The notes: generated by a model not told the origin, from the letters alone. Shown: positions 19,752 through 62,730, counted from the stretch's first letter. The stretch is DNA of 64,000 nt from an uncultured virus (IMG/VR IMGVR_UViG_3300005607_000414) (IMGVR_UViG_3300005607_000414), one strand, 5' to 3'. Made by a program: numbers and translations.

Positions 19752-20246
19752 CTATTTGCCCTCCGCGCGGCGATACACGGTGCATTCGCGTCCGCGCCCC
19801 TGCTTGACAACTTCGAGGTCGCCGCCCTTGGCCATCGACGTGAGCGCGAGGCTGATGCTGGCTTTGCGCTGGCGTTCGAACTCCGGATGCTGGTACTTCG
19901 GATCTCCGTGGCCCCGGTGCGAGATGCTGGCGGTGTAGATCTCGTGGACCGTGAACGTTTGGCCCGCCGCGACCTGCTTCACGTACTCGCGGACCCGCTG
20001 CATCCCGACGTAGTGCTTCTCGCCGCCGTCGCCCTTGTTGCCGTTCGGGACCGCCACACCGCTCTGCACCGCCAGCCCGACCACCACGTCCTTCATCAAC
20101 TCCTGCGTGGTGGGATCTTCGAGCAGGTAGTACATCGACTCCAGCTTGGCGATCTTGCCTTCCTCCTCTTCGGCCTGCCGGAGGTACACGTTCCGCTGTT
20201 CTTGCGTCTGCGAGATGCGTTCAAGGATTCCTTCGAGCACGTCCAT
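19752..20246 (-). CDS. hypothetical protein (N-terminal coiled coil, possible C-terminal winged helix)
   Basis: TGATG-coupled to the Tas-like gene; SISLALTSMAKGGDLEVVKQGRGRECTVYR resembles a wHTH wing. Confidence 0.6.
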   Translation of the reverse strand: MDVLEGILERISQTQEQRNVYLRQAEEEEGKIAKLESMYYLLEDPTTQELMKDVVVGLAVQSGVAVPNGNKGDGGEKHYVGMQRVREYVKQVAAGQTFTVHEIYTASISHRGHGDPKYQHPEFERQRKASISLALTSMAKGGDLEVVKQGRGRECTVYRRAEGK

Positions 20247-21091
20247 CACGCCACCTCCTGCATCGGGAAGTTCGGTGGCTGGATCATGTCGGCGTGGCCG
20301 AGGATCGAGATGACGTACGGCTTGGGCGGCGGCGTGCCGGTGGCCAGCGTCCACGCGACATGGTGGTAGTGGGCCAGAAACAACTTCACGACCCAGCGCT
20401 TCGCCCGCGCGTGGATGTGGGCCGGCGGGAGCTTCCCGGCAGCGTACGCCTGGTACGCATCCGTGCTCTTGCCGATGTTGAACCGCTCCAGTTTGTAAGG
20501 GGCCTGGTCCGCGAACTTACCGGCCTCGTTGCGCTCCTGCTCGATCTGCTTCCTCTGGAGATACAACTGGCCGTAGAAGTCGTCCGGGCGTCCGGACACC
20601 TTCACAAAGGATTCCCCGATCTTCCAGCAGAGGCACTTCAGGCCCGCGTTCCACGGGCGGCGTTCACCCTTCTTCCACTCGACGGTGGGATCGAGGCCCG
20701 CGAACCGCCAGATACGCCCGACCGTCGCGCAGCGGGAGATGTCGATGTGCGCCGCCAGCCCCGCCGAAATGACGGGGCCGATGCCGACAATCGACTTCGC
20801 CCACCGCGCGGCCGGAAGCCCGTCCGTCCACGAGTTCAACGCACGCCTGATCTGCTTCTCGACCGTCTCGTTCTGCTCGAACAGCCAGCGCAGGACCTCG
20901 TGCGGCTCCTTCGACTCTGCGAGTGCGCGCACCTGATTGGCCGCAGCCTTGCGGTGTTCCTGCATCGCGTAATAGGCATCGACCAGATACCGCGCCTCAT
21001 CGATGCTCAGACTGACTGCGGCCTTTACAAGGTCGCGCTGGAGACGCCGAACAACATCGGGTGCCCCGCTCGTATCGGTGGTTTGCTCCAC
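20246..21091 (-). CDS. TasA-like Nop/IS110-Tnp-domain RNA-binding protein without nuclease domain
   Basis: YYAMQEHRKAAANQ coiled coil; SIVGIGPVISAGL; IWRFAGLDP; HARAKRWVVKLFL; no DEDD RuvC or HNH; no catalytic SG serine; adjacent 36-nt dual-repeat array. Confidence 0.8.
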   Translation of the reverse strand: MEQTTDTSGAPDVVRRLQRDLVKAAVSLSIDEARYLVDAYYAMQEHRKAAANQVRALAESKEPHEVLRWLFEQNETVEKQIRRALNSWTDGLPAARWAKSIVGIGPVISAGLAAHIDISRCATVGRIWRFAGLDPTVEWKKGERRPWNAGLKCLCWKIGESFVKVSGRPDDFYGQLYLQRKQIEQERNEAGKFADQAPYKLERFNIGKSTDAYQAYAAGKLPPAHIHARAKRWVVKLFLAHYHHVAWTLATGTPPPKPYVISILGHADMIQPPNFPMQEVA

Positions 21092-21117
21092 TGTGTTTCC
21101 CTTCCTTGGTGCTGCTG

Positions 21118-21265
21118 TTACTCGCTGGTGTCCTGGCGCGCTCGACCTTTATGGATCGCTCCATGACCTTGGTTCTCTCCGGCGGCATGGCTCGCGCGTA
21201 ATAAGTGGCACTCCCGGTCCCGATGGCTCGCTCAACTTGCCTGGTGCTCTCGACCTTCTTGGCTG
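21118..21265 (-). ncRNA. TIGR-like array 1 (about four 36-nt dual-spacer units)
   Basis: TGG (CCA on minus) at 21134, 21152, 21170, 21188, 21206, 21224, 21242, 21260, exactly 18 nt apart, with alternating AGCGAGCCA-type and AGAGNACCA-type repeats. Confidence 0.85.
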
Positions 21266-21302
21266 TTGCGCGGCGGGCCGACGCGCGACCCGCCGCTACG
21301 AG

Positions 21303-27549: not shown

Positions 27550-29697
27550 CTACGGGTTGGAGTAGAGCAGGATGTAGCCTGCGGTCACGCCTGCGGGATT
27601 CTTCACCTTGAGGACTCCGGACCACCCGGACGGGTTGGTCGCGCCCATCAACTCAGCGAAGCGGTAGCCGTTGCCGGTGCTGCCCGCGATGATCAATTCG
27701 CCGCCAGCCGTGACCTCCACCAGCGTGTGGTCAGCAAGGTTGGAGCCGGGGCCGCGCACCTTGAACGGCGACTCGCTCGTGTCCTTACCGACGACGAGCA
27801 GAGCGCCGCACGCGATTCCGGCAGCAACCGGCGCGGTCTGGTATCCCCACGTGCGCGCGTATCCCTTCTTCGGGTCGGTGCCCTGCTGGAGGCACGCTCC
27901 CCACAGGAGGATGTTGCCGGAGGACCAATCGTCGCCGTTGCCCGCGTACTGGCGCACGACAACCCAGAGGCCGGTCTGCCCTCCGGCCAGAGTGCCGGTG
28001 ACGCCGAACCGCTGCCACGTGGTCGTGAGCGTCTTCTGCGTGGGACCGGCGAGGTAGGATGCGTACCCGTTGTCCACGATGGCCAGCGACACCTTCTTGG
28101 TGCCGGAGGCGACCTTGGCCCACACGTAGAACGTGTACGTGCCACCCGAGGACAGGCCCGCGATCTGCTGCTGGATGAGCGGCGTGCCGGTACTGGCCGC
28201 GATCTGGTCGGCGGTGCCGTTGCCATCCGGCGCGGTGTCGGCGTTCGCGCTCACCGAGCAGGACCCGCCGTTCTTGTCCCACGTCGTCGCGGAGAAGTCT
28301 TCGGAGTACTTCGCCATGTTCTCGTACGGCCCGCCCGCCGATCCGAATGGCCCGCACTCGATGGAGTTCAGGTGCGAATCGAGGTACGCCCACAGGTTGT
28401 TGGCGGCGGCATACGCGAAGTTCGCGCCGCCCGACCCGTCGCGCAGGACGACGGTGCCCGCCGTTGCGTTCGCAGTCGCGTCGGTGATCTGCGAGGACGT
28501 GTGCGTGTGGACCGACGCCGCCTTGCCCGCGAGGTCCGTTACCAGGCCGGTGATATCGGCCTCGGCGTGCGTGTGGCTGGTCGGAGCCTTGCCCGCCAGA
28601 GCGGTAACTAGGCCGGTCACGTCGGCCTGCGCGTGCGTGTGGGTGAGCGGGGCCTTGCCAGCCAGATCCGTCGTGAGGCTGGTTACGTCGGCCTCCGCAT
28701 GGGTGTGGCCGGGAACCGACGCGAGCGCGATGGTGACGTTCACGCGGTCGCTGGCGGGCACGTCCAGGAACGTAAGTCCGATGTTCGCGCCCTGGATCAG
28801 GTTTAACGCACGGCGCGTCCCGACCGCCGCGCCATTGTTCTGGATCGAGAACGGGAGCGATCCGGACACGATGTCCGCAGCCACGTGCGTGTGGCTGGGC
28901 AGGTCGCCAGCGGCCAGGAGCGCGCCAGCCGTCGTGCGCCCCCACGAGTCCACGGTCACCTTGGTATAGGTGCCAGGCCCGACGCCGGAGGCCGAGAGCG
29001 AGATGACGCCCGCAGCCACGCTGATCCCGCCGACCGGATCGATCTGCACGACGCCCTTGGCGAGCGTCGTGGCGTCCGGAACCGTGGTCGCGCCGAACGT
29101 CTGGCCCGCAGCGAAGTCGATGACGGCGTCCATCGCCAGATGGTTGTTGGCGGCGAGCGCGATGCCGAGGTCGCCGGAGTTGTCCTGCTTCCGCCATTTG
29201 ACCGCGCCAGCGTTGGGCAGGCGTACCAGGCCGGTGCTCGACTTGGTGCCCGTGCCAAACTCCGCGCCGTCCTGGAACGTCTTGAGGCCGGTGACGGTGA
29301 CCGCGCCGTCCTTGCGGATATAGTTGCGCGCGGCGGCGGTGCCCAACTCGTTCTCGACGGCCAGCACCGCCGACTGGAGAGAGGTGATGAAGCCCGAGAC
29401 CATGTTCGCCTTCACCGCCGCGCCGTTGTTGTGGCCGGAGGCGGCGGTCCCGAAGGCTCCACGCTGGCATCCGGTGAACTGCGTGGCGTTCTTGCCGGTG
29501 TACACCACCAGTTCGTCGTCAACGGAGAGCACGCCGTAGCTCGCGGCAAAGCCTCCGGACGTGGAGGACACGTTGATCGTGGAGTCGCCAGCCAGCACCG
29601 CGCCCGTCGTGGTCGTCTCCAAGGGCGCACCGGAGAACGCATCGACCGGTGTGAATAGGCTGGCAGCGCTGTCGATTGAGCCGGGATAGTTAGCCAC
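27550..29697 (-). CDS. tail fibre protein with HTH-A-x-A-D-(I/V)-T-x-L repeats and carbohydrate-binding-like domain
   Basis: GTYTKVTVDSWGR fibre motif; His-x-His repeats; YSEDFS..APDGNGTAD..YTFYVWAK..TTTWQRF domain. Confidence 0.85.
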   Translation of the reverse strand: MANYPGSIDSAASLFTPVDAFSGAPLETTTTGAVLAGDSTINVSSTSGGFAASYGVLSVDDELVVYTGKNATQFTGCQRGAFGTAASGHNNGAAVKANMVSGFITSLQSAVLAVENELGTAAARNYIRKDGAVTVTGLKTFQDGAEFGTGTKSSTGLVRLPNAGAVKWRKQDNSGDLGIALAANNHLAMDAVIDFAAGQTFGATTVPDATTLAKGVVQIDPVGGISVAAGVISLSASGVGPGTYTKVTVDSWGRTTAGALLAAGDLPSHTHVAADIVSGSLPFSIQNNGAAVGTRRALNLIQGANIGLTFLDVPASDRVNVTIALASVPGHTHAEADVTSLTTDLAGKAPLTHTHAQADVTGLVTALAGKAPTSHTHAEADITGLVTDLAGKAASVHTHTSSQITDATANATAGTVVLRDGSGGANFAYAAANNLWAYLDSHLNSIECGPFGSAGGPYENMAKYSEDFSATTWDKNGGSCSVSANADTAPDGNGTADQIAASTGTPLIQQQIAGLSSGGTYTFYVWAKVASGTKKVSLAIVDNGYASYLAGPTQKTLTTTWQRFGVTGTLAGGQTGLWVVVRQYAGNGDDWSSGNILLWGACLQQGTDPKKGYARTWGYQTAPVAAGIACGALLVVGKDTSESPFKVRGPGSNLADHTLVEVTAGGELIIAGSTGNGYRFAELMGATNPSGWSGVLKVKNPAGVTAGYILLYSNP
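28483..28710 (-). repeat. 66-bp (22-aa) tandem repeats in tail fibre
   Basis: HTHAEADVTSLTTDLAGKA / HTHAQADVTGLVTALAGKA / HTHAEADITGLVTDLAGKA / HTHTSSQITD. Confidence 0.85.
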
Positions 29698-46067: not shown

Positions 46068-47108
46068 TTACTGGCAGATGTTGTCCACCGCGCACTTGCC
46101 GACCGCCGTGAGGATGCCCTGCGCGGCGTCGTACAACGGCACGCAGTCCACCGCGACCGTGAGGATCTGGTCCGTCTCCGCGATCTCGACCACGGAGTAC
46201 GCGATCTTCTGCCACGTCAACTGGAGCGAGTTGTTGGTGTCGTACGCCAGCGTGACGACCGCCGTGCCGGTGGTTTGCGCCTTGAGCTTCGTGTACTCGT
46301 CCGATCCGTTCATGAACCGAGCAACCAAGCGCAAGTTGCCCTGCCGGTTGCCGAACTCCAGCCTGCCGCGGATCGCGCCCGTGGACCCGTCGCCCGCAGT
46401 CTGGAAGCCGGAGCCGGGGAAGAAGCCGGAGTCCATCCGGATGTTGTTCTTCCAGCCCGTCTCCAGGGAGACGATGTTCTTGTTGGTCACATAGTCCACG
46501 CCGTTGATCGAGAGCGTGAGCGATGCGGACGGCAGGAGCTTCTCTGCGGTCGCGGAGGGCATCGTGATGCCGGTCGCGGAGTCGATGACCTTGCCGGAGC
46601 CGACCAGTTCGACGCTGATCTTGCTGTTGGCGCGGCCAGGACCGGAGCCAACGCTGATCTGGAACGACTCGACGGCCATGCCGACCGCCTGCCGGTCCAC
46701 GACAACGCCCGCGCCCGGACGGATCTGCTCGACGTACGACAGGTACGGCAACTCCGCAGCATCGCCGTTCGCCGGGATCAGCGGAGTGCAGGTGTACACG
46801 AAGTTCGGCCCGCCCGACTTGACGACCTTGCCGAGCGCGAACGCGACCGCCCACGACCCGATCTCCGCGCCGAGGTACTTCTCCAGCGTGCATCCCACGT
46901 CCCACGCCGTCTTGTACGTGACGGTGGCGAACTCGTGGCCCTTGCCGTACTCTTCGGCGTCGTTCTCCGTGGCGAGCTTCGGGTTGATGAGGGACGCGTT
47001 GAGCTTCGTGAACCGCCACATATCCGCAGCAGCCTGCGCCGTGGCGATATCGGCCTGCTTCTTCTTCCCGAAGCAGATCAGTACTTCCTGGAGCCTAGTC
47101 GTGGACAT
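46068..47108 (-). CDS. major tail (tube) protein
   Basis: 346 aa beta-rich; canonical position; GAGGAGG RBS. Confidence 0.75.
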   Translation of the reverse strand: MSTTRLQEVLICFGKKKQADIATAQAAADMWRFTKLNASLINPKLATENDAEEYGKGHEFATVTYKTAWDVGCTLEKYLGAEIGSWAVAFALGKVVKSGGPNFVYTCTPLIPANGDAAELPYLSYVEQIRPGAGVVVDRQAVGMAVESFQISVGSGPGRANSKISVELVGSGKVIDSATGITMPSATAEKLLPSASLTLSINGVDYVTNKNIVSLETGWKNNIRMDSGFFPGSGFQTAGDGSTGAIRGRLEFGNRQGNLRLVARFMNGSDEYTKLKAQTTGTAVVTLAYDTNNSLQLTWQKIAYSVVEIAETDQILTVAVDCVPLYDAAQGILTAVGKCAVDNICQ

Positions 47109-50747: not shown

Positions 50748-52253
50748 TTAGTTCGGCTTCACCGTGGCCGACTTCTCAGCGAGGTACTGCTGGTAAAGAG
50801 CAGGCTGGAGCTTCATCGCCTCCACGTACGCCTGCGCGAACGTGATGTGCTTGCTGGCCGCGATCTGCGTGGCGGCAGCGTTCAACTGCGCCTCCGCGCC
50901 CACCGGAGCAGCGTCGGTGTGCGAACTGATCTGCGTACCCTGCGACTTCGCGGCTTTGCGCGCCAGGAGGGACTCGCGCGCCTGCGCAGGCGTCAGGCGC
51001 TTCGAGATGGCCTCCGCGAGAAATCCGGGTTCACCGGCCAACGTGCAGAGCGCCGCGATCTCCTCGTGCTCGCCGCGGATGCGCGCCTCGATAGCTGCGG
51101 CGTCCGGAGCGGGCGGCGCGGCCGGAGGCGCAGCAGCGGGCTCCGGAGTGGGCGGCGCGGCGGCGGAAGGCTGGGCCGGCGGTTGGGCAGCGGGGGCCGG
51201 AGCCTCCGTGCCAGTCTTCGTTTCGGCGGGCGCAGCACCCTGCGGGTTCGGAACGTCTGCCGGTTTGGTCTCGGTCGTTTGAGGCATCGTCGTATCCTCG
51301 TCCTTTCCTTGCTCGATTTGCGCTTCGGCAGACGCCGTTGCGCGAGACTGCCTGAAGCCCTTCGCCGCCTGAGTCACCGCAGCGAGAGCATCATCAAAAC
51401 TGCCAACCTGATCTGCAAGCCCTGCGGAGATCGCCTTCTCCCCCCAGAACAGGCCCGCATCCGTGTTCCGGATGAGCGCGGGCTTGAGGCCCCGGTTGCG
51501 CGCAACCGCCGTCACGAACATGTCGTAAAGCCGGTCCACCTCCGTTTGGAGGTTCGCGCGGGCGTCGTCCGACAACGGCTGGTGCGTCGAGAAGTCGTTC
51601 TTCCGCGCGCCAGCATAGACCGCCGTGTACTTGCGCCCGACCTTCTCGTCCCATCCGGACTGATCCATGTGGACCGCGATCACGCCGATGGAACCCACGC
51701 CGCCCGTCCTGGTGAGGAACAGGCGTTGCGCGCTCGAAGCCAGAGCGTACGCAGCCGAGAACGCCTCGTCGTTGGCGATGGCGTAACACGGCTTCTGGTC
51801 GCGGACGGCGTACACCTCGTCCGCGAGATCGAACAGCCCGCCGACCTCGCCGCCAGGCGAGTCAACGTCGAGCAGGATGCCGCGGATACCGGGATCGTCG
51901 CGGGCGTCCGCGAGGTGGCTGCGGATCTGCTCGTAAGACTGAAGGCCGGATTCGGCGTCCATCCACGACGCCTTTTTCACCAGCGTGCCGGAGACGGAGA
52001 GAACCGCGATACCGTCCGGAGTCACCGGGTACGGCTTCCGGCCGGATGCGAGGGACAGAATCTCGTCGTCCTCTTCCTCGTCGTCCGGAGCGGGACGGGT
52101 GACCACAACCGGCATCCCCTCGACCACGACATGCTCGCGCATTCCAATGCGCGGGCCGATGGCCTCCAGAATCACCATCAACTTGTCGATCTGGACCATC
52201 AGAGGCACGCCAAACACGCGCGCCGCGAGGTGCGGCAGATAGTTCTGCTTCAC
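50748..52253 (-). CDS. S49 prohead protease with C-terminal scaffold region (lambda C/Nu3-like)
   Basis: LDVDSPGGEV, AFSAAYALAS, VGSIGV; Pro/Ala linker; possible internal start MPQTT. Confidence 0.92.
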   Translation of the reverse strand: MKQNYLPHLAARVFGVPLMVQIDKLMVILEAIGPRIGMREHVVVEGMPVVVTRPAPDDEEEDDEILSLASGRKPYPVTPDGIAVLSVSGTLVKKASWMDAESGLQSYEQIRSHLADARDDPGIRGILLDVDSPGGEVGGLFDLADEVYAVRDQKPCYAIANDEAFSAAYALASSAQRLFLTRTGGVGSIGVIAVHMDQSGWDEKVGRKYTAVYAGARKNDFSTHQPLSDDARANLQTEVDRLYDMFVTAVARNRGLKPALIRNTDAGLFWGEKAISAGLADQVGSFDDALAAVTQAAKGFRQSRATASAEAQIEQGKDEDTTMPQTTETKPADVPNPQGAAPAETKTGTEAPAPAAQPPAQPSAAAPPTPEPAAAPPAAPPAPDAAAIEARIRGEHEEIAALCTLAGEPGFLAEAISKRLTPAQARESLLARKAAKSQGTQISSHTDAAPVGAEAQLNAAATQIAASKHITFAQAYVEAMKLQPALYQQYLAEKSATVKPN

Positions 52254-56052: not shown

Positions 56053-56566
56053 TCAGGCCCTTGCGAATCTCGTCCGTGAGAATCTCGTGGATGCGAGACG
56101 TGTCGAGCGCGTCGGCCCGCTCTGCTGGCACGCCCGCGCCGAGCAGGATGTCCTTCACCTCCGCTGCGATGCTGGCGCACACCCGATCCGCGATGTTGAG
56201 CATCGCGTCCCGGCGCTGCCGGTCGATGTTGAACTGCGCGATCTTTACCTCGTCCTTGGAGACGAGACTGCCGACCTTCTCCTCGTACTCGATCTTGGCG
56301 AGGCGCGCCTGGTAGTGCTCCCGAACCGCCCGCGCCTTGGTGTACTGCGCCGCGCCGAAGCCGTCGCCGTCGTCCTCCGGCTGGCGGCGCGTCCCAATGA
56401 CGGGACCACGCTTGTGCGTATTCGTCTCCCATTCCTGATCGGCGCGGTCGGAGTCGATCCGGCCATCCGGCAGCAGCGAGATCCGGCCAGACGTAATCGC
56501 CTTTTGTACGGTGGAGAGGCCGACGCCACGGTGCCGTGCGTACGCCCTCTGGCTCAAAACTGCCAT
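56024..56566 (-). CDS. terminase small subunit (Nu1-like)
   Basis: SQRAYARHRGVGLSTVQKAITSGRI HTH; YTKARAVREHYQARLAKIEYE..GSLV. Confidence 0.85.
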   Translation of the reverse strand: MAVLSQRAYARHRGVGLSTVQKAITSGRISLLPDGRIDSDRADQEWETNTHKRGPVIGTRRQPEDDGDGFGAAQYTKARAVREHYQARLAKIEYEEKVGSLVSKDEVKIAQFNIDRQRRDAMLNIADRVCASIAAEVKDILLGAGVPAERADALDTSRIHEILTDEIRKGLNDYADSLVN

Positions 56567-56667: not shown

Positions 56668-57099
56668 ATGACGAACGAGACCAGCACCACCGAAACCGCC
56701 GCCGTTGCGGAACAGAGCGCCAGCCCCGCGCCCGCCACGAAGAAGGCCAGCAAGAAGGCCTCCAAGAAGACCAGCAAGAAGGAAGCGAAGCCTGTCAGCA
56801 AGAAGGCCTCCAAAAAGGACGCCAAGCCCCCCGCCAAGAAGGAAGCGAAGCCCACCGGCAAGAAGACCTCCAAAGCCACGGACGGCCAGCCCCGCGAGGG
56901 CAGCAAGAAGGCCATCGTACTGGACCTCCTGCGCCGCAAGAATGGCGCGACGATGGCCGAGATCGCCAAGGCCACCGACTGGCAGAATCACTCGATTAGG
57001 GGCTTCATCTCCGGCACCCTCACCAAGAAGATGGGGCTGACGGTCGAGAGCAGCAAGAACGAGGCTGGCGACCGCGTGTACCGCATCGCCAGCAAGTAG
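56668..57099 (+). CDS. DUF3489 winged-helix protein with Lys-rich histone-H1-like N-terminus
   Basis: REGSKKAIVLDLLRRKNGATMAEIAKATDWQNHSIRGFISGTLTKKMGL; KKASKK repeats. Confidence 0.9.
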   Translation: MTNETSTTETAAVAEQSASPAPATKKASKKASKKTSKKEAKPVSKKASKKDAKPPAKKEAKPTGKKTSKATDGQPREGSKKAIVLDLLRRKNGATMAEIAKATDWQNHSIRGFISGTLTKKMGLTVESSKNEAGDRVYRIASK

Positions 57100-57595: not shown

Positions 57596-58891
57596 CTATT
57601 GGCTCACCGGGTGAGCCTCCCCACTGACTTCTGCTGCCACATCATCGAACGCGCGTCCGGACCCATCGAGGCGCGCCACTTGCCCCGTGAACGCCTGCCA
57701 GCGCCGCACGATCACATCGCAGTACTTCGGGTCCAGTTCGATCACTCGCGCCTGCCGCCCGGTCTTCTCGCACGCGATGATCGTCGTCCCGCTCCCACCG
57801 AACGGGTCTAGGATCGTGTCACGCGACTTGCTGTTGTTCCGGAGGGCGCGCTCGACCAACTCGACTGGCTTCATTGTCGGGTGCTCGCGGTTTGCGCTGG
57901 GCCGCTTAATCTCCCACGTGTCGCTCTGGCCCCGGTCGCCGCACCAATAGTGCGTGCCGCCCTCGCGCCAACCGTACATGATCGGTTCGTAGTTGTGCCG
58001 GTAGTCTCCCCAGCCCAGAGTGAAGTGGTTCTTGACCCAGATGATGATGCCCGACCAGTGGCCTCCGGCCTCGAGGAACGCCTGCCGGAGCGTGTGCATC
58101 TCGGACGAGGACATGCAGATGTACACCGCGCCCTTGCAGACGGCCAGGATGTTCGCGGAGGCGTCCTTGAGGAAGCCGTAGAACTTGGCGCCCAGCGAGT
58201 CGTTCTGGATCTTGAGTTTGTCCTTGGTGCGGCCCTCGTAATCGATGTTGTACGGCGGGTCGGTGAAGCACATGTCGGCCAGATCGCCAGCCAGCACCTT
58301 CTCCACATGCCCGAGGACCGTTGCATCCCCGCACAGCAACCGATGCTGCCCCATGACCCACAGGTCGCCCGCCACCGTGACGACCTTTTCCTGCTCGTCC
58401 GGAACGGCGTCCTCGTCCGTGAGTCCGGTCTTGGTCTGCTCCGGGCCCGCAAGGATCTCCTCGATCTCGTCCTCGGTGAAGCCCACAAGGTCCAAATCGA
58501 ACTCGTCCTCTTTCAACGACTCCAACTCGACGCGCAGCATCTCTTCGTCCCATCCGGCACTCAGAGCCAGGCGGTTGTCCGCGAGGACGAGCGCGCGGCG
58601 TTGGGTTTCCGTGAGGTGGTCCAGGACAATGACCGGCACCTCCGTCATCTTCAACTTGCGCGCCGCAGCCAGGCGCGCGTGGCCCGCGATGATAATTCCG
58701 TCCGCGCCGACCAGGATCGGGTTGGTCCAACCGAATTCCGCGATGCTGGCGGCGACCTGGGCGACCTGCTCCTCCGTGTGCGTCCGCGCGTTGCGGGCGT
58801 ACGGAATCAGTTTATCGATCGGCCAGAACTGGACAAGGAGGTTGCGAAGGCGCTCCACAGGTTTGAGATGTTCTTCCACTTTGGCTTTCAC
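57596..58891 (-). CDS. ParB N-terminal domain plus N6A/N4C DNA methyltransferase (beta class)
   Basis: PYARNARTH..IIAGHARL..ADNRL; TDPPY; HPTMKP; DPFGGSGT; GTG start after GGAGG. Confidence 0.93.
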   Translation of the reverse strand: MKAKVEEHLKPVERLRNLLVQFWPIDKLIPYARNARTHTEEQVAQVAASIAEFGWTNPILVGADGIIIAGHARLAAARKLKMTEVPVIVLDHLTETQRRALVLADNRLALSAGWDEEMLRVELESLKEDEFDLDLVGFTEDEIEEILAGPEQTKTGLTDEDAVPDEQEKVVTVAGDLWVMGQHRLLCGDATVLGHVEKVLAGDLADMCFTDPPYNIDYEGRTKDKLKIQNDSLGAKFYGFLKDASANILAVCKGAVYICMSSSEMHTLRQAFLEAGGHWSGIIIWVKNHFTLGWGDYRHNYEPIMYGWREGGTHYWCGDRGQSDTWEIKRPSANREHPTMKPVELVERALRNNSKSRDTILDPFGGSGTTIIACEKTGRQARVIELDPKYCDVIVRRWQAFTGQVARLDGSGRAFDDVAAEVSGEAHPVSQ

Positions 58892-58910: not shown

Positions 58911-59447
58911 TTAGGCCGCAGTCTTCGGCTGGGCCTGGTTGACCACGTTCGCAATCGACGTGGTGGCGGTGGCGAGCGCCTGGACGATCTGCTGCAACGT
59001 CGCCAGGACCGGCGTGATGGTGGCGTCCACCTGCTTGGCGACCGCCGCCGCGACAGCCTGCGCGTCCACGCCGACGCCAGCCGCGCTCACGTCCGTGGCG
59101 CGATTGGCGGGCACGGCGCCAGCCGTCAGGTTCGAACCCGCGCCGCGCGAGACGGGGTTCAACTCGTCGGTCCAGAGGGCATCGGCGGCAACGTCGGCGT
59201 GTTTGATGGCCTGCTTCGCCACCATGTTGCTCGTCTCCACGGCGTTCTGGAGCGCCTGGAGAGCGACGTTCTGGATCTGATCGAACTGAATCTGCGAACG
59301 GCGCGCGATCAGCAGATCGAGATCCTGGTAAGCGTCATACGTGCGCTTGGTGTTGGCTGCGGTGAGTTCGGAATGCGCTTTGAAAAACTCATCCGTTCCG
59401 GTTTCGAATTCACGCTCGCCCTGGTTGGGCGTGGCGACTTCAGGCAT
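58911..59447 (-). CDS. Ala/Gln/Thr-rich helical hypothetical protein
   Basis: 178 aa, strong AAGGAG RBS, between the two MTases. Confidence 0.75.
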   Translation of the reverse strand: MPEVATPNQGEREFETGTDEFFKAHSELTAANTKRTYDAYQDLDLLIARRSQIQFDQIQNVALQALQNAVETSNMVAKQAIKHADVAADALWTDELNPVSRGAGSNLTAGAVPANRATDVSAAGVGVDAQAVAAAVAKQVDATITPVLATLQQIVQALATATTSIANVVNQAQPKTAA

Positions 59448-59473
59448 ACATTCTCTCCTTCGAAAGATGATTT

Positions 59474-59552
59474 AAGAACGCTCCCCAATCACGGTTCTCT
59501 CCGTTGCTATGGCTCGCTCGGACGGCTCGATGCCGCCGCTTTCATTGGCTTA
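59474..59552 (-). ncRNA. TIGR-like mini-array 2 (two 36-nt units, partly degenerate)
   Basis: Repeat blocks at 59474, 59492, 59510, 59528, 59546 (18-nt period) including exact GAGCGAGCCA and GAGAGAACCG. Confidence 0.7.
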
Positions 59553-61088
59553 GGAAGCCTTGCGCTTCCTGGGGCCGTAGTGTGGGTTTGGCCCGTGGTG
59601 CCTTATCGCCCGCGAGTCCTGGGCCTTCGCGTTGACGGCCTGCTCGACCGGGATGCCTCGCGCCGCCGCAACCGACTGGAACGTGCCGGTGCTCCCGTCC
59701 CCGTCCACCAGCAACGGCGTCTCGCCGGTCAAATTCCAGATGCGCCGGAGGATCACATCGCAGTAGGCTGGCGACAGTTCGCAGCCACACCCGGTGCGCG
59801 CGAGAAGCGCCGCCGCCGCGATGGTGGTGCCGGACCCCATAAACGGATCGAAGACCACGTCGCCCTCGTCACTGAACGCGAGGAGGAAGAACTCGACCAG
59901 CGCGCGGGGGAACGGAGCGGAGTGCGATCCCTGCGAGGATTCCGACTTCACCTCGATCACATTGGACGGGCGCGCGACTCCCTTGTACCGGCCTTCGCTA
60001 TCCGTGGCGTCTGCTTTGCCAGCCGCATCGCCACGCGCGCCCGTGCCCAGCAAGCCCGAGCCAGACTTCGACTTCGGGTTGTTGGGCGAGTAGTCGAAAC
60101 AATCCTCGCTCTCGTGTCCGACCCGCTTGGGCCGGAATTTGATCTGCTGCTGGCGCGAGAAGTGGAAGATTGGCTCCCATGCGTTTTTGAAACGGTTGTT
60201 CCAACCGCCAGGCACGCCGTTGTCGGTCTTGCGCCAGCAGAACTCGTCAACAAACCGCCACTCCCACTGGCGGCGGTGTGCGATGACCAGATCCTTCACG
60301 TACAGGTTCCGCTCGCCCTCGTCGGCGTGCTCCTTGATGTTCAGAAGGTAGGAGCCATCGTCCGCGAGCACCGACCGGATGTTGGTCGCCACATCCTTGT
60401 ACCAGGCCACGTACTCCTCCGGCCGGATCGGTTTGAACCCGCTGGAGGAGTCGTACTCCCGCTGCGTGGCGTACGGCGGTGAGGTGATGCAGACGTTCGG
60501 GCGCGCGTCGTCCAGGAGCTTCAGGACGACCGTGATGTCCCGGCAGTCTCCGCAGATCAAACGGTGCGGCCCGATGGTCCACAGGTCGCCAGCCCGAGTA
60601 ACCGGGTTGACCGGAGCCTCCGGAACGTCCTCTTCCTCGTCCGGAGCGGACTGCGGTTCGTCGCCGGCCAGCAGATCCTCCAACTCGTCGTCGGAGAAGC
60701 CCACGAGCGCGAGGTCCACGCCGTCCGATTCGAGGTCGCGTAACTCCGCGGCAAGGACCTTCTCGTCCCACCCGGCGTTGAGCGCCAACTTGTTGTCCGC
60801 GATGATGTATGCGCGCCGTTGAGTCTCGGTGAGGTGATCCAGGACGACAACCGGAACCTCACCGAGATTCAACTTGCGGGCAGCCAGGAGACGACCGTGG
60901 CCAGCGATGATCCCGGCGTTGGAGTCCACCAGGATAGGAGCGTTGAAACCGAATTCCGCGATCGACGCCGCGATTTGCGCCACTTGCGCATCGGAGTGCG
61001 TGCGCGCGTTCTTCGCGTACGGCACCAGCCGGTCGGTGGGCCAGATCTCGATGCGCCGCGCCATCGCGGTCGTGATGGAAGTGCTCAT
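59550..61088 (-). CDS. ParB N-terminal domain plus N4C/N6A DNA methyltransferase (beta class)
   Basis: PYAKNARTH..IIAGHGRL..ADNKL; TSPPY; HSAPFP; DPFMGSGT; ATG 61088 (or 61064). Confidence 0.93.
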   Translation of the reverse strand: MSTSITTAMARRIEIWPTDRLVPYAKNARTHSDAQVAQIAASIAEFGFNAPILVDSNAGIIAGHGRLLAARKLNLGEVPVVVLDHLTETQRRAYIIADNKLALNAGWDEKVLAAELRDLESDGVDLALVGFSDDELEDLLAGDEPQSAPDEEEDVPEAPVNPVTRAGDLWTIGPHRLICGDCRDITVVLKLLDDARPNVCITSPPYATQREYDSSSGFKPIRPEEYVAWYKDVATNIRSVLADDGSYLLNIKEHADEGERNLYVKDLVIAHRRQWEWRFVDEFCWRKTDNGVPGGWNNRFKNAWEPIFHFSRQQQIKFRPKRVGHESEDCFDYSPNNPKSKSGSGLLGTGARGDAAGKADATDSEGRYKGVARPSNVIEVKSESSQGSHSAPFPRALVEFFLLAFSDEGDVVFDPFMGSGTTIAAAALLARTGCGCELSPAYCDVILRRIWNLTGETPLLVDGDGSTGTFQSVAAARGIPVEQAVNAKAQDSRAIRHHGPNPHYGPRKRKAS

Positions 61089-61151
61089 GCTGGAGCCGAA
61101 GGCCGAAAGTGATTGCAGTATTCGCTGATCGAGCGCACAATCAAAATCACA

Positions 61152-61394
61152 ATGGCAAGAAGCAACCACATCTCCGTCGAGATCGAGGCGAAGTTTGGCA
61201 GCACTTTTCAGGAAGAAGTGGCGATGCGCATGCTGCCCAAGTACATCAACGCCTGGAAAGCGTTCTTCCTGGAAAAGCACTCCAAGAACGCCATCGAGTT
61301 CCGAATCACGAACGTCGAGCACATCACGCCCATGAGAGAACCTGCGCCCCGGAACAGGCAACGGCGGTCCGATAGACTGCCGTGCTCCCGCTAA
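61152..61394 (+). CDS. small hypothetical moron protein
   Basis: MARSNHISVEIE...; TTGCAG-N17-CACAAT promoter at 61113-61141 just upstream. Confidence 0.5.
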   Translation: MARSNHISVEIEAKFGSTFQEEVAMRMLPKYINAWKAFFLEKHSKNAIEFRITNVEHITPMREPAPRNRQRRSDRLPCSR

Positions 61395-61537
61395 ACGCCG
61401 CCACGTCGCCCACATCTCGCCCCGTTCGCGCCGGAGCGCGGCAGGTGGAGGCGTTGGGCCAAGAGACGGGCGGCGGCGCAACGGGGCGCGCGGGGGCGCG
61501 AACGCCGCCAGCCGTACCCGACCACCTCACTTTTTTT

Positions 61538-61600
61538 GTGACGCTGGCGAAATGGTGCAATCGCGGAACGCGCCGGAGATTTTGCCCCGGTAGTACCTAA
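61538..61600 (-). other. putative lambda-like cos (packaging) region
   Basis: AGGTACTACCGG...GGCGCGTTCCGCG...TTTCGCCAGCG resembles the lambda cosQ-cosN-I2 layout; upstream of packaging genes. Confidence 0.4.
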
Positions 61601-61712
61601 AGTGGAGCGAGAATTGCATGGTCGGCCGGCGCTTCGCGTTCATTCTGACCGCTGTGGTGGTCGGTGAGTTGGGTGCGCCAACGCCACCGACCCGTTGCCG
61701 GATTGATGGCGT

Positions 61713-61803
61713 TGGCCTCTCGAAACAGTGGTTCAAATCCAGTCCTTGGATAGTCGCTCGGCTCGCATGGTTCTCTCAAGGACTGTGGCTCGCTCAACTG
61801 TTT
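61713..61803 (-). ncRNA. TIGR-like mini-array 3 (one clean unit plus degenerate, self-complementary continuation)
   Basis: GAGCGAGCCA-CAGTCCTT-GAGAGAACCA-TGCGAGCC-GAGCGACT; repeat blocks at 61750, 61768, 61786. Confidence 0.72.
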
Positions 61804-62051
61804 GATAAGCCGCACGTGCAACGGAACAACTGGCAATCGCAGACTGGCAGTGGCGTGCGCTGCGGACCAGGGCCGTGCGTGAGCATGTGCTGGCGGTACG
61901 CCTTGCGCGTGCCGAACTCCTGCCCGCACGCGCCGCAGATATCGCCAGCCCACGGGCCGTCGTCGTCGTTCGAGGACTCAGCACGATCTGGAAACGACTC
62001 TTCGCTGTAATCGTCCTCAACGCAAGGCCCTGAAAGTGATTGGATCAACAC
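61794..62051 (-). CDS. C2H2 zinc-finger small protein
   Basis: CGACGQEFGTRKAYRQHMLTH = C-x2-C-x3-F-x8-H-x3-H; overlaps stop of upstream ORF. Confidence 0.55.
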   Translation of the reverse strand: MLIQSLSGPCVEDDYSEESFPDRAESSNDDDGPWAGDICGACGQEFGTRKAYRQHMLTHGPGPQRTPLPVCDCQLFRCTCGLSNS

Positions 62052-62407
62052 GTCGCGTTCCCCGCCATGCAGTCCAGCAGAACGCGCAAAAAGATTGGGC
62101 GCGTCTCAGGCGGCGCGAGGTTGTACTCGCAACTCTGATCGGTCTTGATCCGATGACCCAAGGGCCTCAATGCCCAAGGCTGGTGGCCGTCGTTCAGTTC
62201 GTGCCTGTACGAATACGCTTGACCCATGTGGTCGCGCACCGTCGTAGGCTTCGGATCTCCGGGCCGCTTGTACATGATGGCTCGGGAGACGCGCCCCTTT
62301 TTGTGGCGCACAACCTTCGCCAAGCCGTCGCGTTCGAGTTTCAAAGCCCTGCGTAGCGGAACGAGGCCCTGGAATTCACAGTCGTAGGAATAGAGCGGAA
62401 CCGTCAT
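62045..62407 (-). CDS. conserved hypothetical phage protein
   Basis: 120 aa, GGGAG RBS; first gene toward the late operon. Confidence 0.7.
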   Translation of the reverse strand: MTVPLYSYDCEFQGLVPLRRALKLERDGLAKVVRHKKGRVSRAIMYKRPGDPKPTTVRDHMGQAYSYRHELNDGHQPWALRPLGHRIKTDQSCEYNLAPPETRPIFLRVLLDCMAGNATC

Positions 62408-62601
62408 GGTCGTCTCCCATGACGCTCAGCGCTGTGGTGCTTTCTGCGGGGTGGCTCTAAATGAAAATCGCCAGCAGCGACACCGCTACTGGCCGATCAT
62501 GCGGGATTGAGTTTTTTTGTCGAGGTGTCCCGGCACCTCGTATTTGGCTGCTCTGATTTTCTCAGAAACGTAAGCGCCGGTCAATGTTTTTTATGGTGGG
62601 A

Positions 62602-62678
62602 TGGTGGGCCCGACAGAACTCGAATCTGTGACCTTCTGCGTGTCAAGCAGACGCTCTAACCAACTGAGCTACGGGCCC
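62602..62678 (-). tRNA. tRNA-Val(GAC)
   Basis: GGGCCCGTAGCTCAGTTGGTTAGAGCGTCTGCTT-GAC-ACGCAGAAGGTCACAGATTCGAGTTCTGTCGGGCCCACCA, 77 nt cloverleaf with encoded CCA; TGnTACGAT promoter upstream. Confidence 0.95.
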
Positions 62679-62730
62679 GCAAGACTCATCGTACCAAACT
62701 TGAAGAGGACTGACCAAACAGCATCGAGGA

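What the first reader, a model, noticed from the sequence alone, without database searches (positions are those of the whole stretch)
59474..59552. Orphan TIGR mini-array ~38 kb from the tas gene, inside the late/packaging operon
The short gap between the first ParB-MTase stop codon and the RBS of the 178-aa gene is filled by the same 18-nt periodic repeats: TAAGCCA-ATGAAAGCG-GCGGCATCG-AGCCGTCCG-AGCGAGCCA-TAGCAACGG-AGAGAACCG-TGATTGGGG-AGCG. It begins exactly at the stop codon. Inference: guides are distributed through the phage genome and loaded in trans. This could give stage-specific (late) guides, or Tas-dependent processing/regulation of the host mRNA. I am not aware of this distributed architecture being described.
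Basis: partly seen in the sequence, partly recalled or inferred. Interest (0 to 1): 0.85.

Follow-up and report, generated by a model that had tools for sequence, protein, structure and literature searches.

The report
Distant TIGR guide units in prophage
A prophage of a soil bacterium keeps single guide-RNA units of its TIGR-TasA system 38-41 kb away from the tasA gene, and these guides fit the packaging genes of sister phages better than its own, which gives a first hint of what these recently found RNA-guided systems are used for in nature.

Summary
Confirmed. The 71 bases between the stop codon of the first ParB-methylase gene and the ribosome site of the 178-aa gene (59479-59549, minus strand) are a TIGR mini-array. 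It has a 5'-truncated edge repeat fused to the TAA, one decayed unit and one intact unit (GAGCGAGCCA-8-GAGAGAACCG-8-GAGCG, 22 of 23 template positions). The repeats are those of the 4-unit array beside the prophage's tasA (20246-21091), 38 kb away. A second lone unit (23/23) lies at 61755-61795. These two are among the three best template matches in the 8.2-Mb genome. Two related proviruses carry arrays at the same two places, 37-44 kb from tasA, with the same repeats, unrelated spacers and other unit numbers. The site is empty in one metagenome contig and in all 32 related IMG/VR loci examined, one of them a tas-bearing relative. Under the published pairing geometry, 4 of 19 distal guides fit sibling phages' packaging-module DNA (16/16 twice, 15/16 twice; 0-2 in 20 control sets). 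Resident copies match only 11-13/16 or are split by 12 nt. Best reading: trans-acting TasA guides cut out of operon mRNA and aimed at sibling phages. Expression, loading and effect are untested. Published surveys looked only 5-10 kb around tas. New variant of a known kind.

The parts
59479..59549 (-). Distal TIGR mini-array 1 (the finding). It holds a 5'-truncated edge GCCA (59546-59549) fused to the TAA stop. Decayed unit 1 spans 59520-59545 and its loop repeat matches 5 of 10. Intact unit 2 spans 59479-59519: edge GAGCGAGCCA, spacer A tagcaacg, loop GAGAGAACCG, spacer B tgattggg, 3'-truncated edge GAGCG.
   Evidence: Sequence. Pattern matches. Template score 22/23 genome-wide. Syntenic arrays in relatives.
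61755..61795 (-). Distal lone TIGR unit 2 (new here). Edge GAGCGAGCCA begins inside the TGA stop of an 85-aa zinc-finger-like ORF. Then spacer A cagtcctt, loop GAGAGAACCA, spacer B tgcgagcc, then GAGCG.
   Evidence: Score 23/23, the best in the genome. Syntenic arrays in two relatives.
61740..61759 (-). Altered resident junction next to unit 2: GAGCG-ACTAT-CCA followed by AAGGACTG. AAGGACTG is the reverse complement of spacer A. In relative G004 the same place reads as an intact edge-like repeat plus AAGGACTG, which is the 16/16 match of this guide.
   Evidence: (alignment A1). The 9-bp inverted repeat appears in the fold.
21116..21269 (-). Main TIGR array of 4 units between the DUF2303 gene stop and the tas ribosome site. 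Edge consensus GAGCGAGCCA, loop GAGAGNNCCA, 8-nt spacers.
20246..21091 (-). tasA, 281 aa. It has a Nop-type Tas domain and no nuclease domain. Y259 and H266 align with the Y289/H296 processing dyad of SpTasH.
   Evidence: PDB sequence search: 9mty 2.5e-16 (its aligned text equals TaTasR in the paper's Table S1) and TasH 21kl 7.1e-13. PHROG 4285 at 1.3e-48. The identical protein is listed in the published Tas catalogue.
59422..59437 (-). Resident near-cognate site of the unit-2 guide of array 1, covering codons 4-9 of the 178-aa gene. It matches 13 of 16, and the three differences from the guide-specified sequence are at third codon positions relative to the sibling alleles.
   Evidence: (0.005 of shuffles reach 13).
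58911..59447 (-). 178-aa gene downstream of array 1, with no family match. Its conserved 5' end is the predicted target in sibling phages.
59550..61481 (-). ParB_N + N6_N4 DNA methylase gene 1, flanked by the two distal arrays. The true start is uncertain, because family matches begin near residue 133.
56331..56346 (-). Site in this prophage's terS gene that is a perfect 16/16 match for a distal-array guide of the related provirus on G006:C200. That provirus's own terS has 5 mismatches at this site.

Best explanation
The site is a genuine, selectively kept guide-encoding unit of the prophage's dual-repeat TIGR-TasA system, placed 38 kb from tasA.

Proposed mechanism:
1. The unit is transcribed as part of the minus-strand gene block ParB-methylase 1 -> 178-aa gene -> ParB-methylase 2 -> terS/terL (inferred).
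2. TasA dimers made from the distant gene bind the box-C-bearing edge and loop repeats. The Y/H dyad cuts in the edge repeats, which releases a 36-nt tigRNA (AGCCA + 8 + 10 + 8 + GAGCG). This necessarily severs the operon mRNA between two genes (inferred from the published dual-repeat mechanism).
3. The loaded, nuclease-free TasA binds double-stranded DNA whose top strand reads spacer A followed by the reverse complement of spacer B. It acts as a roadblock or repressor (inferred from published TasA and dead-TasR work).
4. The best natural matches are not in the host or the resident phage. They lie in the same packaging module of sibling phages. This unit's guide matches codons 4-9 of the 178-aa gene at 15/16 in six sibling loci but only 13/16 in the resident copy. 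I therefore read the distal units as weapons, or drive elements, against closely related phages, with the resident copy immunised by a few changes.

Shown: the anatomy, non-random occurrence, synteny, repeat conservation with spacer turnover, presence/absence polymorphism, and the target matches. Inferred: transcription, processing, trans loading, DNA binding and biological effect.
For: 1. Real unit of the resident system.
- The repeats are identical to the tas-adjacent array.
- The two distal units are among the three top template scores in 8.2 Mb (23/23, and 22/23 tied with main-array unit 3); the background maximum is 18.
- All 44 template hits of 17/23 or better in six related phage sequences lie on the tas strand. 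The opposite strands never exceed 16.
- The repeats closely resemble the experimentally processed SpTIGR array (edge AAGCGAGCCA, loop AAGACAACCA, 8-nt spacers), as printed in Table S1 of PMC12045711.

2. A single tas gene in the genome. It is a TasA: the PDB hits are TasR and TasH, there is no nuclease domain, and the Y/H dyad is conserved. The dyad's role comes from the preprint 10.64898/2026.09.09.750476 (sections read).

3. Selection on the repeats but not the spacers.
- The provirus IMGVR_UViG_3300036906_000230 (Tas 75% identical) has a 2-unit array starting TAA-GCCA at the same stop codon and a 3-unit array at the second site, 36.7 and 38.3 kb from tas.
- The provirus on a Bryobacterales MAG contig (G006:C200, Tas 72%) has 3 units at the same stop codon, plus 4- and 2-unit arrays, 39-44 kb from tas.
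- Edge repeats are identical and no spacer is shared.

4. A discrete accessory module.
- The site is empty (stop + 25-45 nt + ATG) in the tas-bearing relative G004.
- A contig of coded run X7 replaces 59449-59549 with 25 letters (table 5c).
- All 32 IMG/VR loci holding a 178-aa-gene homologue with its start in view are empty at this site.

5. Targets, using arrangement A + rc(B) with gap 0. I derived this geometry from the 8-nt 3' overhangs and the C-5 rule of PMC12045711 (sections read).
- The lone unit at 61.8 kb matches 16/16 in G004-type phages.
- A G006 distal guide matches 16/16 in terS of this window, of G004-type phages and of L099, L100 and L129, against 11/16 in its own terS.
- This finding's guide matches 15/16 in L097, L098, L100 and L101-L103.
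- A guide of the syntenic G003 array matches 15/16 in the ParB-methylase gene of 5 loci, against 11/16 in its own.
- In a 302-kb packaging-module set, 4 of 19 distal guides reach 15/16 or better. None of 20 control sets reached 4 (range 0-2). Of 12 tas-adjacent guides, 0 did.
- There were no perfect hits in the other arrangement or with reversed spacers.
- No match with 0 mismatches exists in the host genome for any of the six guides.
Against: - No expression data exist. No RNA run holds the stretch, and the organism is known only from metagenomes.
- The loop repeat of the intact unit ends in CCG, not the canonical box C CCA. CCG is, however, the regular edge ending in relatives G015 and G016.
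- The 3' edge is truncated to GAGCG. [quoted passage not shown]
- Unit 1 is decayed.
- This unit's guide has no perfect target anywhere. The 7 exact hits in IMG/VR are unrelated loci.
- In the broad test, guides with a hit of one mismatch or fewer were only mildly enriched: 11 of 254 against a control mean of 6.5, with 2 of 30 swapped sets reaching 11. Four of 30 swapped sets had one perfect hit.
- The 16/16 hit of the 61.8-kb unit lies in homologous flanking DNA. It could reflect local copying of neighbouring DNA into a guide rather than aiming at a rival.
- Spacer A of the 61.8-kb unit also forms a 9-bp hairpin with its flank (z -4.27).
- TasA's mismatch tolerance is unknown, so the 13/16 resident site might still be bound.
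- Repression has been shown for a stem-loop TasA and for dead TasR, not for a dual-repeat TasA.
Confidence: 0.6

Rival explanations
1. Cis-acting Tas site only. The repeats recruit TasA to the polycistronic mRNA so that it is cut between the ParB-methylase gene and the 178-aa gene, uncoupling or tuning their expression. The excised RNA has no guide role and the spacers drift neutrally.
For: - The arrays run from a stop codon to the next ribosome site at three places in this phage: the main array, 59.5 kb and 61.8 kb.
- TasA keeps the Y/H dyad.
- Unconstrained intergenic sequence beside the arrays is also saturated between relatives. Spacer divergence alone therefore does not prove guide function.
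Against: - It does not explain why spacer pairs match sibling packaging genes at 15-16 of 16 in the one arrangement that Tas uses.
- It does not explain why spacer lengths are held at 8 nt.
- All 32 relatives examined express the same gene pair without any array.
- This reading is not exclusive of the main reading, which also entails mRNA cleavage.
Confidence: 0.15
2. Autoregulation. The guide is aimed at the resident 178-aa gene start (13/16), and the phage uses it to hold down or time its own packaging operon.
For: - The best local match of the guide in its own genome lies 45-60 nt downstream, in the first codons of the next gene. Only 0.005 of shuffled guides do as well.
- TasA-type proteins repress transcription.
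Against: - The resident site has three mismatches spread over both halves, while sibling alleles have one.
- The same better-on-others-than-on-self pattern holds for three other distal guides.
- Single mismatches already impair TasR and TasH activity (section read; abstract of PMC13421893).
Confidence: 0.1
3. Inert relic. The units are scars of recombination or of an older, larger array, kept only by chance and no longer used.
For: - Unit 1 of the array is decayed.
- Decayed units follow the 61.8-kb unit both here and in G004.
- Arrays are lost in some relatives.
Against: - The two distal units match the clade consensus as well as or better than the units next to tas: 23 and 22 against 22, 21, 19 and 19 of 23.
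- Edge repeats are identical across proviruses whose Tas proteins are only 72-75% identical, while neighbouring intergenic DNA is saturated.
- Unit numbers differ, which indicates turnover.
Confidence: 0.08
4. Chance resemblance of a GC-rich intergenic stretch to the TIGR repeat.
For: None beyond the short length of the motif.
Against: (shuffles and the genome-wide background), plus the synteny.
Confidence: 0.01

Closest known systems
Dual-repeat TIGR-TasA systems (Faure et al. 2025, PMC12045711; Xu et al. 2026 preprint 10.64898/2026.09.09.750476)
   Same: - Alternating edge and loop repeats ending in box C, two short spacers and a 36-nt unit.
- 5'- and 3'-truncated edge repeats at the array ends.
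- A solo-Nop TasA with the Y/H dyad.
- A phage setting.
- This exact TasA protein is in the published catalogue.
   Different: - Published arrays are described upstream, downstream, flanking or inside tas, and were sought within 5 kb or up to 10 kb of tas.
- Here one- and two-unit arrays lie 38 and 41 kb away in another gene module, and a third of the phage's intact guides (2 of 6) are distal.
- Natural targets are said to be undetermined in both papers. Here sibling-phage matches are found.
tasParB-tasA operons (Faure et al. 2025, methods section read)
   Same: TIGR arrays interleaved with a gene that has a ParB-like domain. The arrays lie upstream, downstream or between the genes.
   Different: - Here the ParB domain is fused to an N6/N4 DNA methylase and sits 38 kb from tasA.
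- The same methylase genes occur in all 32 relatives examined without any array, so partnership is not indicated.
- I could not compare sequences with TasParB because fig. S14 was not seen.
VIPR systems (preprint 10.64898/2026.04.26.720920; passages read)
   Same: Phage-encoded RNA-guided DNA binders that repress competing phages. Their natural guide targets lie on related elements, and some guides are aimed at other VIPR loci.
   Different: Unrelated protein and guide code (GGY/NN repeats). The role there is shown by experiment, whereas here it is inferred from sequence matches only.
Virus-borne mini-CRISPR arrays and solitary repeat units aimed at related viruses
   Same: One- or two-unit guide arrays lying away from, or without, effector genes and carrying guides against sibling viruses.
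   Different: The guide system is different. TIGR has no known adaptation machinery, and the guides here are bipartite 8+8 nt.
Homing endonuclease genes and IS110 bridge-RNA elements (general knowledge; the IS110-Tas relationship is stated in PMC12045711)
   Same: The element's recognition specificity is for DNA next to its own position in alleles that lack it. The resident copy is protected by sequence changes.
   Different: TasA has no nuclease or recombinase domain. No mobility of the mini-arrays has been shown.

Membership tests
Dual-repeat TIGR array | Two distinct alternating 8-12-nt repeats separated by spacers of about 8-12 nt, with a unit of 36 nt | tested here: met
   10-nt edge GAGCGAGCCA, 10-nt loop GAGAGAACCG, 8-nt spacers and a 36-nt period at 59479-59549. 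The definition comes from PMC12045711.
Dual-repeat TIGR array | Each repeat ends in box C (CCA) and begins with box D (UG in TasR arrays) | tested here: inconclusive
   Box C is CCA in the edge but CCG in the loop of the intact unit. CCG is the regular edge ending in relatives. The repeats begin with a conserved G preceded by a variable base, as in SpTIGR (AAG...), not a literal UG.
Dual-repeat TIGR array | [quoted passage not shown] | tested here: met
   GCCA after the TAA and a terminal GAGCG. The same ends occur in the syntenic arrays of two relatives.
Dual-repeat TIGR array | Repeats conserved and spacers variable between related loci | tested here: met
   Edge repeats are identical in three proviruses and no spacer is shared among them.
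Dual-repeat TIGR array | Located next to (upstream, downstream or inside) a tas gene | tested here: not met
   The array lies 38.4 kb from the only tas gene of the genome. This is the point of novelty. A tas gene with matching repeats is present in the same prophage.
Dual-repeat TIGR array | Transcribed and processed into 36-nt tigRNAs bound by Tas | not testable with these tools
   No RNA run holds the stretch.
TasA (solo-Nop Tas protein) | Nop-type Tas domain homologous to solved TasR and TasH | tested here: met
   phmmer against PDB: 9mty 2.5e-16 and TasH 21kl 7.1e-13, covering residues 68-279.
TasA (solo-Nop Tas protein) | No HNH or RuvC nuclease domain | tested here: met
   The protein is 281 aa. 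Only about 67 residues precede the aligned Nop region, and Pfam gives only a weak Transposase_20 match.
TasA (solo-Nop Tas protein) | C-terminal Y/H dyad of dual-repeat systems (SpTasH Y289/H296) | tested here: met
   Y259 and H266 align to Y289 and H296 in the HMMER alignment. The dyad positions come from the preprint's methods.
Anti-sibling guide (interference between related phages) | Guide matches sibling elements better than self, beyond chance | tested here: met
   4 of 19 distal guides reach 15/16 or better on non-self packaging modules, against 0-2 in 20 control sets. Resident sites match 11-13/16. The broad test was weaker.
Anti-sibling guide (interference between related phages) | Guide-dependent inhibition of the sibling phage | not testable with these tools
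   No cultured host or phage is available.

The most novel reading that the evidence does not exclude
The distal mini-arrays are self-propagating RNA-guided cassettes. Each guide is written from the 16 bp of DNA next to its own position, either a gene start or a repeat-spacer junction. It recognises the unaltered, array-less allele in sibling phages, while the resident copy is immunised by synonymous changes or a broken repeat. During co-infection, TasA binding at that site blocks the rival's packaging operon or stalls replication there, so that repair copies the cassette across. That would make it an RNA-guided analogue of homing. It would also be the first clue to how TIGR arrays gain guides, and it would explain tas genes that appear to lack arrays.
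Probability: 0.2. Interest if true: 0.9.

Novelty: new variant of a known kind. Interest (0 to 1): 0.8.

Why it matters
TIGR-Tas was described in 2025. Both key papers state that its natural targets and biological role are unknown, that array growth is unexplained, and that some tas genes seem to have no array.

This locus bears on each of those points:
- Guides can lie tens of kilobases from tas, outside the 5-10 kb windows surveyed so far. One relative, G004, has tas with no adjacent array and only a decayed unit 39 kb away. Apparently array-less tas genes should therefore be re-examined genome-wide.
- It supplies concrete candidate natural targets: 16-bp sites in the terS, ParB-methylase and 178-aa genes of sibling phages. 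The resident copies are mismatched. This turns the competition-between-mobile-elements idea into a testable prediction with defined RNAs and DNA sites.
- The closeness of guide and target locus hints at how guides arise.

Tried and rejected
- Tandem Repeats Finder over the window reported no array at 59.5, 61.8 or 21.2 kb. The repeats are too short for it, so this says nothing.
- The host-genome target search for the six guides (both arrangements, gaps 0-4) found no perfect match. The one-mismatch hits looked like chance.
- No RNA holder was listed for window:59300-62100, so expression could not be examined.
- The Rfam scan of 59300-62700 found only the tRNA.
- Exact scans of IMG/VR for the two predicted 16-bp targets gave 7 unrelated loci for the 59.5-kb guide. 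For the 61.8-kb guide they gave 10 hits, of which 3 are G004-type phage contigs and 7 are unrelated. The background is about 7 exact hits per 16-mer.
- I tested whether guides in general resemble DNA within 400 nt of themselves. Only 3 of 30 did (p 0.015 or less), so this is not a general rule.
- No attachment-site repeat was found between the tRNA-Val end (62.6 kb) and the integrase end (10.5 kb). The prophage borders are not established.
- Pfam and PHROGs gave nothing for the 178-aa protein or for the 163-aa protein coupled to tas. I could not test whether the latter is a TasParB.
- The depth dips over both arrays in the laid metagenome contigs are not used as evidence. Only the contigs that join across them are used.
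- I considered RNA-guided recruitment of the flanking ParB-methylase by TasA, by analogy with box C/D snoRNPs and fibrillarin. I set it aside as unsupported, because all 32 relatives examined have the methylase without arrays.

Full report
**What is at the coordinates**

All genes of this part of the window run on the minus strand. On that strand the 643-aa ParB_N + N6/N4-methylase ORF ends with TAA at 59552-59550, and the next gene (178 aa, no family match) starts at 59447 behind an AAGGAGAG ribosome site.

The bases in between read, in order:
- GCCA
- atgaaagc
- GGCGGCATCG
- agccgtcc
- GAGCGAGCCA
- tagcaacg
- GAGAGAACCG
- tgattggg
- GAGCG

The register is 10-nt repeats plus 8-nt spacers, not 9+9. 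The first loop repeat is decayed (5 of 10), so there is one intact unit (59479-59519) behind one decayed unit.

**The system it belongs to**

The ORF at 20246-21091 (minus, 281 aa) is a Tas protein.
- A sequence search of the PDB gives 9mty (2.5e-16) and TasH entries such as 21kl (7.1e-13). The aligned text of 9mty equals the TaTasR sequence printed in Table S1 of PMC12045711.
- There is no room for a nuclease domain, so it is a TasA.
- Y259 and H266 align with SpTasH Y289/H296. The Xu et al. preprint names this dyad as the one that cuts the edge repeat in dual-repeat systems.
- The identical protein is listed in the published Tas catalogue, so the gene itself is known.
- It is the only tas in the 8.2-Mb assembly.

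Directly upstream, between the stop of a DUF2303 gene and the tas ribosome site, lies a 4-unit array (21116-21269) with edge GAGCGAGCCA, loop GAGAGNNCCA and 8-nt spacers. These repeats are close to the experimentally processed SpTIGR array (edge AAGCGAGCCA, loop AAGACAACCA, 8-nt spacers).

**More than chance, and not alone**

- A pattern of two half-units found 9 sites in the window against 0.43 expected. Seven are in the main array, one is the finding, and one is a new site at 61755-61788 (4 against 0.18).
- The new site is a lone perfect unit whose edge repeat begins inside the TGA of an 85-aa zinc-finger-like ORF: GAGCGAGCCA / cagtcctt / GAGAGAACCA / tgcgagcc / GAGCG.
- Scoring a 23-position unit template at every position of both strands of the genome gave 23/23 and 22/22-of-23 ties for the distal units and main-array unit 3, then 21, 20, 19 and 19 for other main-array frames. 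Everywhere else scored at most 18.
- The distal units therefore fit the clade consensus as well as or better than the units beside tas.

**Relatives**

Tas relatives were fetched from IMG/VR (27 loci) and from species-representative genomes (6 loci). Three records are long enough to reach about 38 kb upstream of tas.

1. IMGVR_UViG_3300036906_000230 (G003; Tas 75% identical).
   - It has a 2-unit array that begins TAA-GCCA at the stop of its ParB-methylase gene.
   - It has a 3-unit array at the second site. These two arrays lie 36.7 and 38.3 kb from tas.
   - It also has further lone units at 49,672 and 15,016, both scoring 20/23.
2. The provirus on contig C200 of a Bryobacterales MAG (G006; Tas 72%).
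   - It has 3 units starting TAA-GCCA at the same stop codon.
   - It has arrays of 4 and 2 units further upstream. All three arrays lie 39-44 kb from tas.
3. G004 (Tas 73%).
   - The first site is empty: TAA, 26 nt, then ATG.
   - The second site holds only a decayed array.
   - There is no array beside tas.

Edge repeats are identical among the three array-bearing proviruses. No spacer is shared, and unit numbers differ.

The first site is also empty in two other data sets:
- A contig of coded run X7 puts 25 letters in place of 59449-59549 (table 5c).
- All 32 IMG/VR loci with a homologue of the 178-aa gene whose start is in view lack the array.

Contigs of X7 and X8 replace 61733-61883 with 74 letters (table 5). 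All 44 template hits of 17/23 or better in the six phage sequences lie on the tas strand.

In more distant Tas phages (Tas 52-60% identical) the arrays are long. They lie beside tas or are split into several blocks within a few kb of it.

**What the guides match**

Faure et al. report that spacer A pairs with one DNA strand and spacer B with the other, on adjacent sequence. Cuts follow a "C-5 rule", leave 8-nt 3' overhangs, and tolerate gaps of at most 2 bp. From this I derive that the top strand of a target reads spacer A followed by the reverse complement of spacer B. The opposite order would give 5' overhangs. This derivation is my inference.

Results under that rule:
- None of the six window guides has a perfect site in the host genome.
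- Among six related phage sequences (327 kb; 32 guides; gaps 0-2) there were three perfect hits from two guides. All were in that arrangement with gap 0. Three control designs gave none.

The four informative guides are these.

(a) The 61.8-kb unit.
- It matches 16/16 in G004-type phages, at the junction of an edge-like repeat and the following spacer of their decayed array.
- In the window the same junction is altered to GAGCG-ACTAT-CCA, which leaves the two halves 12 nt apart.

(b) A guide of G006's 4-unit distal array.
- It matches 16/16 in the terS gene of this window (56331-56346), of G004-type phages and of L099, L100 and L129.
- G006's own terS has 5 mismatches and G003's has 3, mostly at third codon positions.

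(c) The finding's own guide.
- It matches 15/16 at codons 4-9 of the 178-aa gene in six IMG/VR loci, in two allele types.
- It matches 14/16 in six more loci and 13/16 in the resident copy at 59422-59437.

(d) The first guide of G003's syntenic array.
- It matches 15/16 in the ParB-methylase gene of five loci and 14/16 in this window.
- It matches 11/16 in G003 itself.

Two statistical tests were run.
- In a focused test on 302 kb of non-self packaging modules, 4 of 19 distal guides reached 15/16 or better. Twenty control sets gave 0-2. None of the 12 tas-adjacent guides reached it.
- In a broad test (254 guides, 939 kb), 2 guides had perfect hits. The other arrangement gave 0 and reversed spacers gave 0. 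Four of 30 swapped sets had one perfect hit each and none had two. Hits with one mismatch or fewer were only mildly enriched: 11 against a mean of 6.5, with 2 of 30 sets reaching 11.

Scans of IMG/VR for the exact 16-mers show a background of about 7 unrelated hits per motif.

**How it most likely works**

Shown:
- The anatomy and the non-random occurrence.
- Strand and intergenic placement.
- Synteny with repeat conservation and spacer turnover.
- The presence/absence polymorphism.
- The match pattern.

Inferred from the published dual-repeat mechanism:
- The units are transcribed with their gene block.
- TasA made from the distant gene binds the repeats, and its Y/H dyad cuts in the edge repeats. 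This frees a 36-nt tigRNA and cuts the operon mRNA.
- The RNP binds matching double-stranded DNA and blocks it. Repression has been shown for a stem-loop TasA and for dead TasR, not yet for a dual-repeat TasA.

The matches are better on sibling phages than on the resident copy, and they fall in the very module where the distal arrays sit. I therefore favour interference with, or drive against, sibling phages. The ideas that the units are only cis-processing sites, autoregulators or relics are weighed under rivals. Whether the distal guides are "late" guides cannot be told.

**Caveats**

- There are no RNA data.
- Box C of the intact loop repeat is CCG.
- The 3' edge is truncated.
- The finding's own guide has no perfect target.
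- The 16/16 match of the 61.8-kb unit lies in homologous flank. It may record how the guide was made rather than what it attacks, and spacer A there also pairs with the flank in a predicted hairpin.
- The prophage borders are not established.

**Relation to what is known**

Both TIGR papers describe arrays upstream, downstream, flanking or inside tas. They examined 5 kb or up to 10 kb (median 5.4 kb) around tas.
- The words "orphan" and "standalone" are absent from both papers' main text.
- "Orphan" and "distant" are absent from the four held supplement files of PMC12045711, one of which is cut.
- A library search for tigRNA + orphan gave one unrelated review.
- Fig. S4 and S14 and the TIGRSafari resource were not visible to me and might show such arrays.
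- Both papers state that natural targets are undetermined.

Phage-borne RNA-guided repression of sibling phages is documented for the unrelated VIPR systems.

Earlier notes of this scan, which are unchecked AI notes, describe related cases in other genomes: TIGR guides aimed at the repeat-spacer junction beside them with the resident junction altered (e1-6077640, e1-6077653), an array 10 kb from tasA (e1-5763179), and array-less TasA genes (e1-5814653). My result for the 61.8-kb unit agrees with the first two and was worked out here before I saw them.

**Verdict**

I rate it a new variant of a known kind and of high interest. It extends where TIGR guides must be looked for, and it gives defined candidate natural targets.

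Noticed in passing
window 61677-61716 (minus): A 12-bp-stem hairpin lies just downstream of the 61.8-kb unit. It is conserved in relative G004 with a compensatory change (CCA/TGG to CCG/CGG) and has no U-tract. It may be the terminator-like element reported after TIGR arrays, or a separate RNA element.
   Followed up: partly
L006 9926-9996 (= G004, upstream of its tas): Relative G004 has an intact tas gene but no array beside it, only the hairpin that precedes the array in the window. Its sole TIGR-like unit is a decayed one about 39 kb away. It is a candidate example of the array-less tas loci discussed in the 2026 preprint.
   Followed up: partly
window 58846-58891 (minus); G003 46746-46791; G004 3260; G006:C200 9733: At the first codons of the second ParB-methylase gene, four related phages show a TIGR-unit-like pattern in register (16-19 of 23 template positions). 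This could be an intragenic guide unit or only a conserved coding motif (..ER..).
   Followed up: no
window 19752-20243 (minus): A 163-aa ORF starts at an ATGA overlap with the tas stop codon, which suggests translational coupling. It is conserved downstream of tas in G004 and has no Pfam or PHROG match. Whether it is the ParB-like TasA partner described in the literature could not be tested.
   Followed up: partly
G004 5613-5824 (terS): Guides from three different Tas phages fall within about 210 bp of this terS gene: G006 at 16/16, and L029/L032 and L010-L012 at 15/16. This may be a target hot spot. One-mismatch hits are near the chance rate, so it is only a lead.
   Followed up: partly
genome contig C209, about 51806-51865 (minus): Two edge-repeat-like decamers (GAGCGAGCC.) lie 18 nt apart outside the prophage and score 18/23. 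There is no tas on that contig's hit list. Probably chance, but not examined.
   Followed up: no
window 56740-56865: 12- and 24-nt tandem repeats encode a lysine/alanine-rich tract (AAGAAGGCC...) in the 127-aa ORF just upstream of terS.
   Followed up: no
window 28501-28708: Three copies of a 66-nt tandem repeat lie inside the 715-aa tail-fibre-like gene (Pfam phage tail repeat PTR).
   Followed up: no
window 62496-62584 (minus): Two sigma-70-like promoter matches and a terminator-like hairpin lie directly downstream of tRNA-Val, at the head of the minus-strand block that contains both distal arrays. They may form the promoter region of that block.
   Followed up: no
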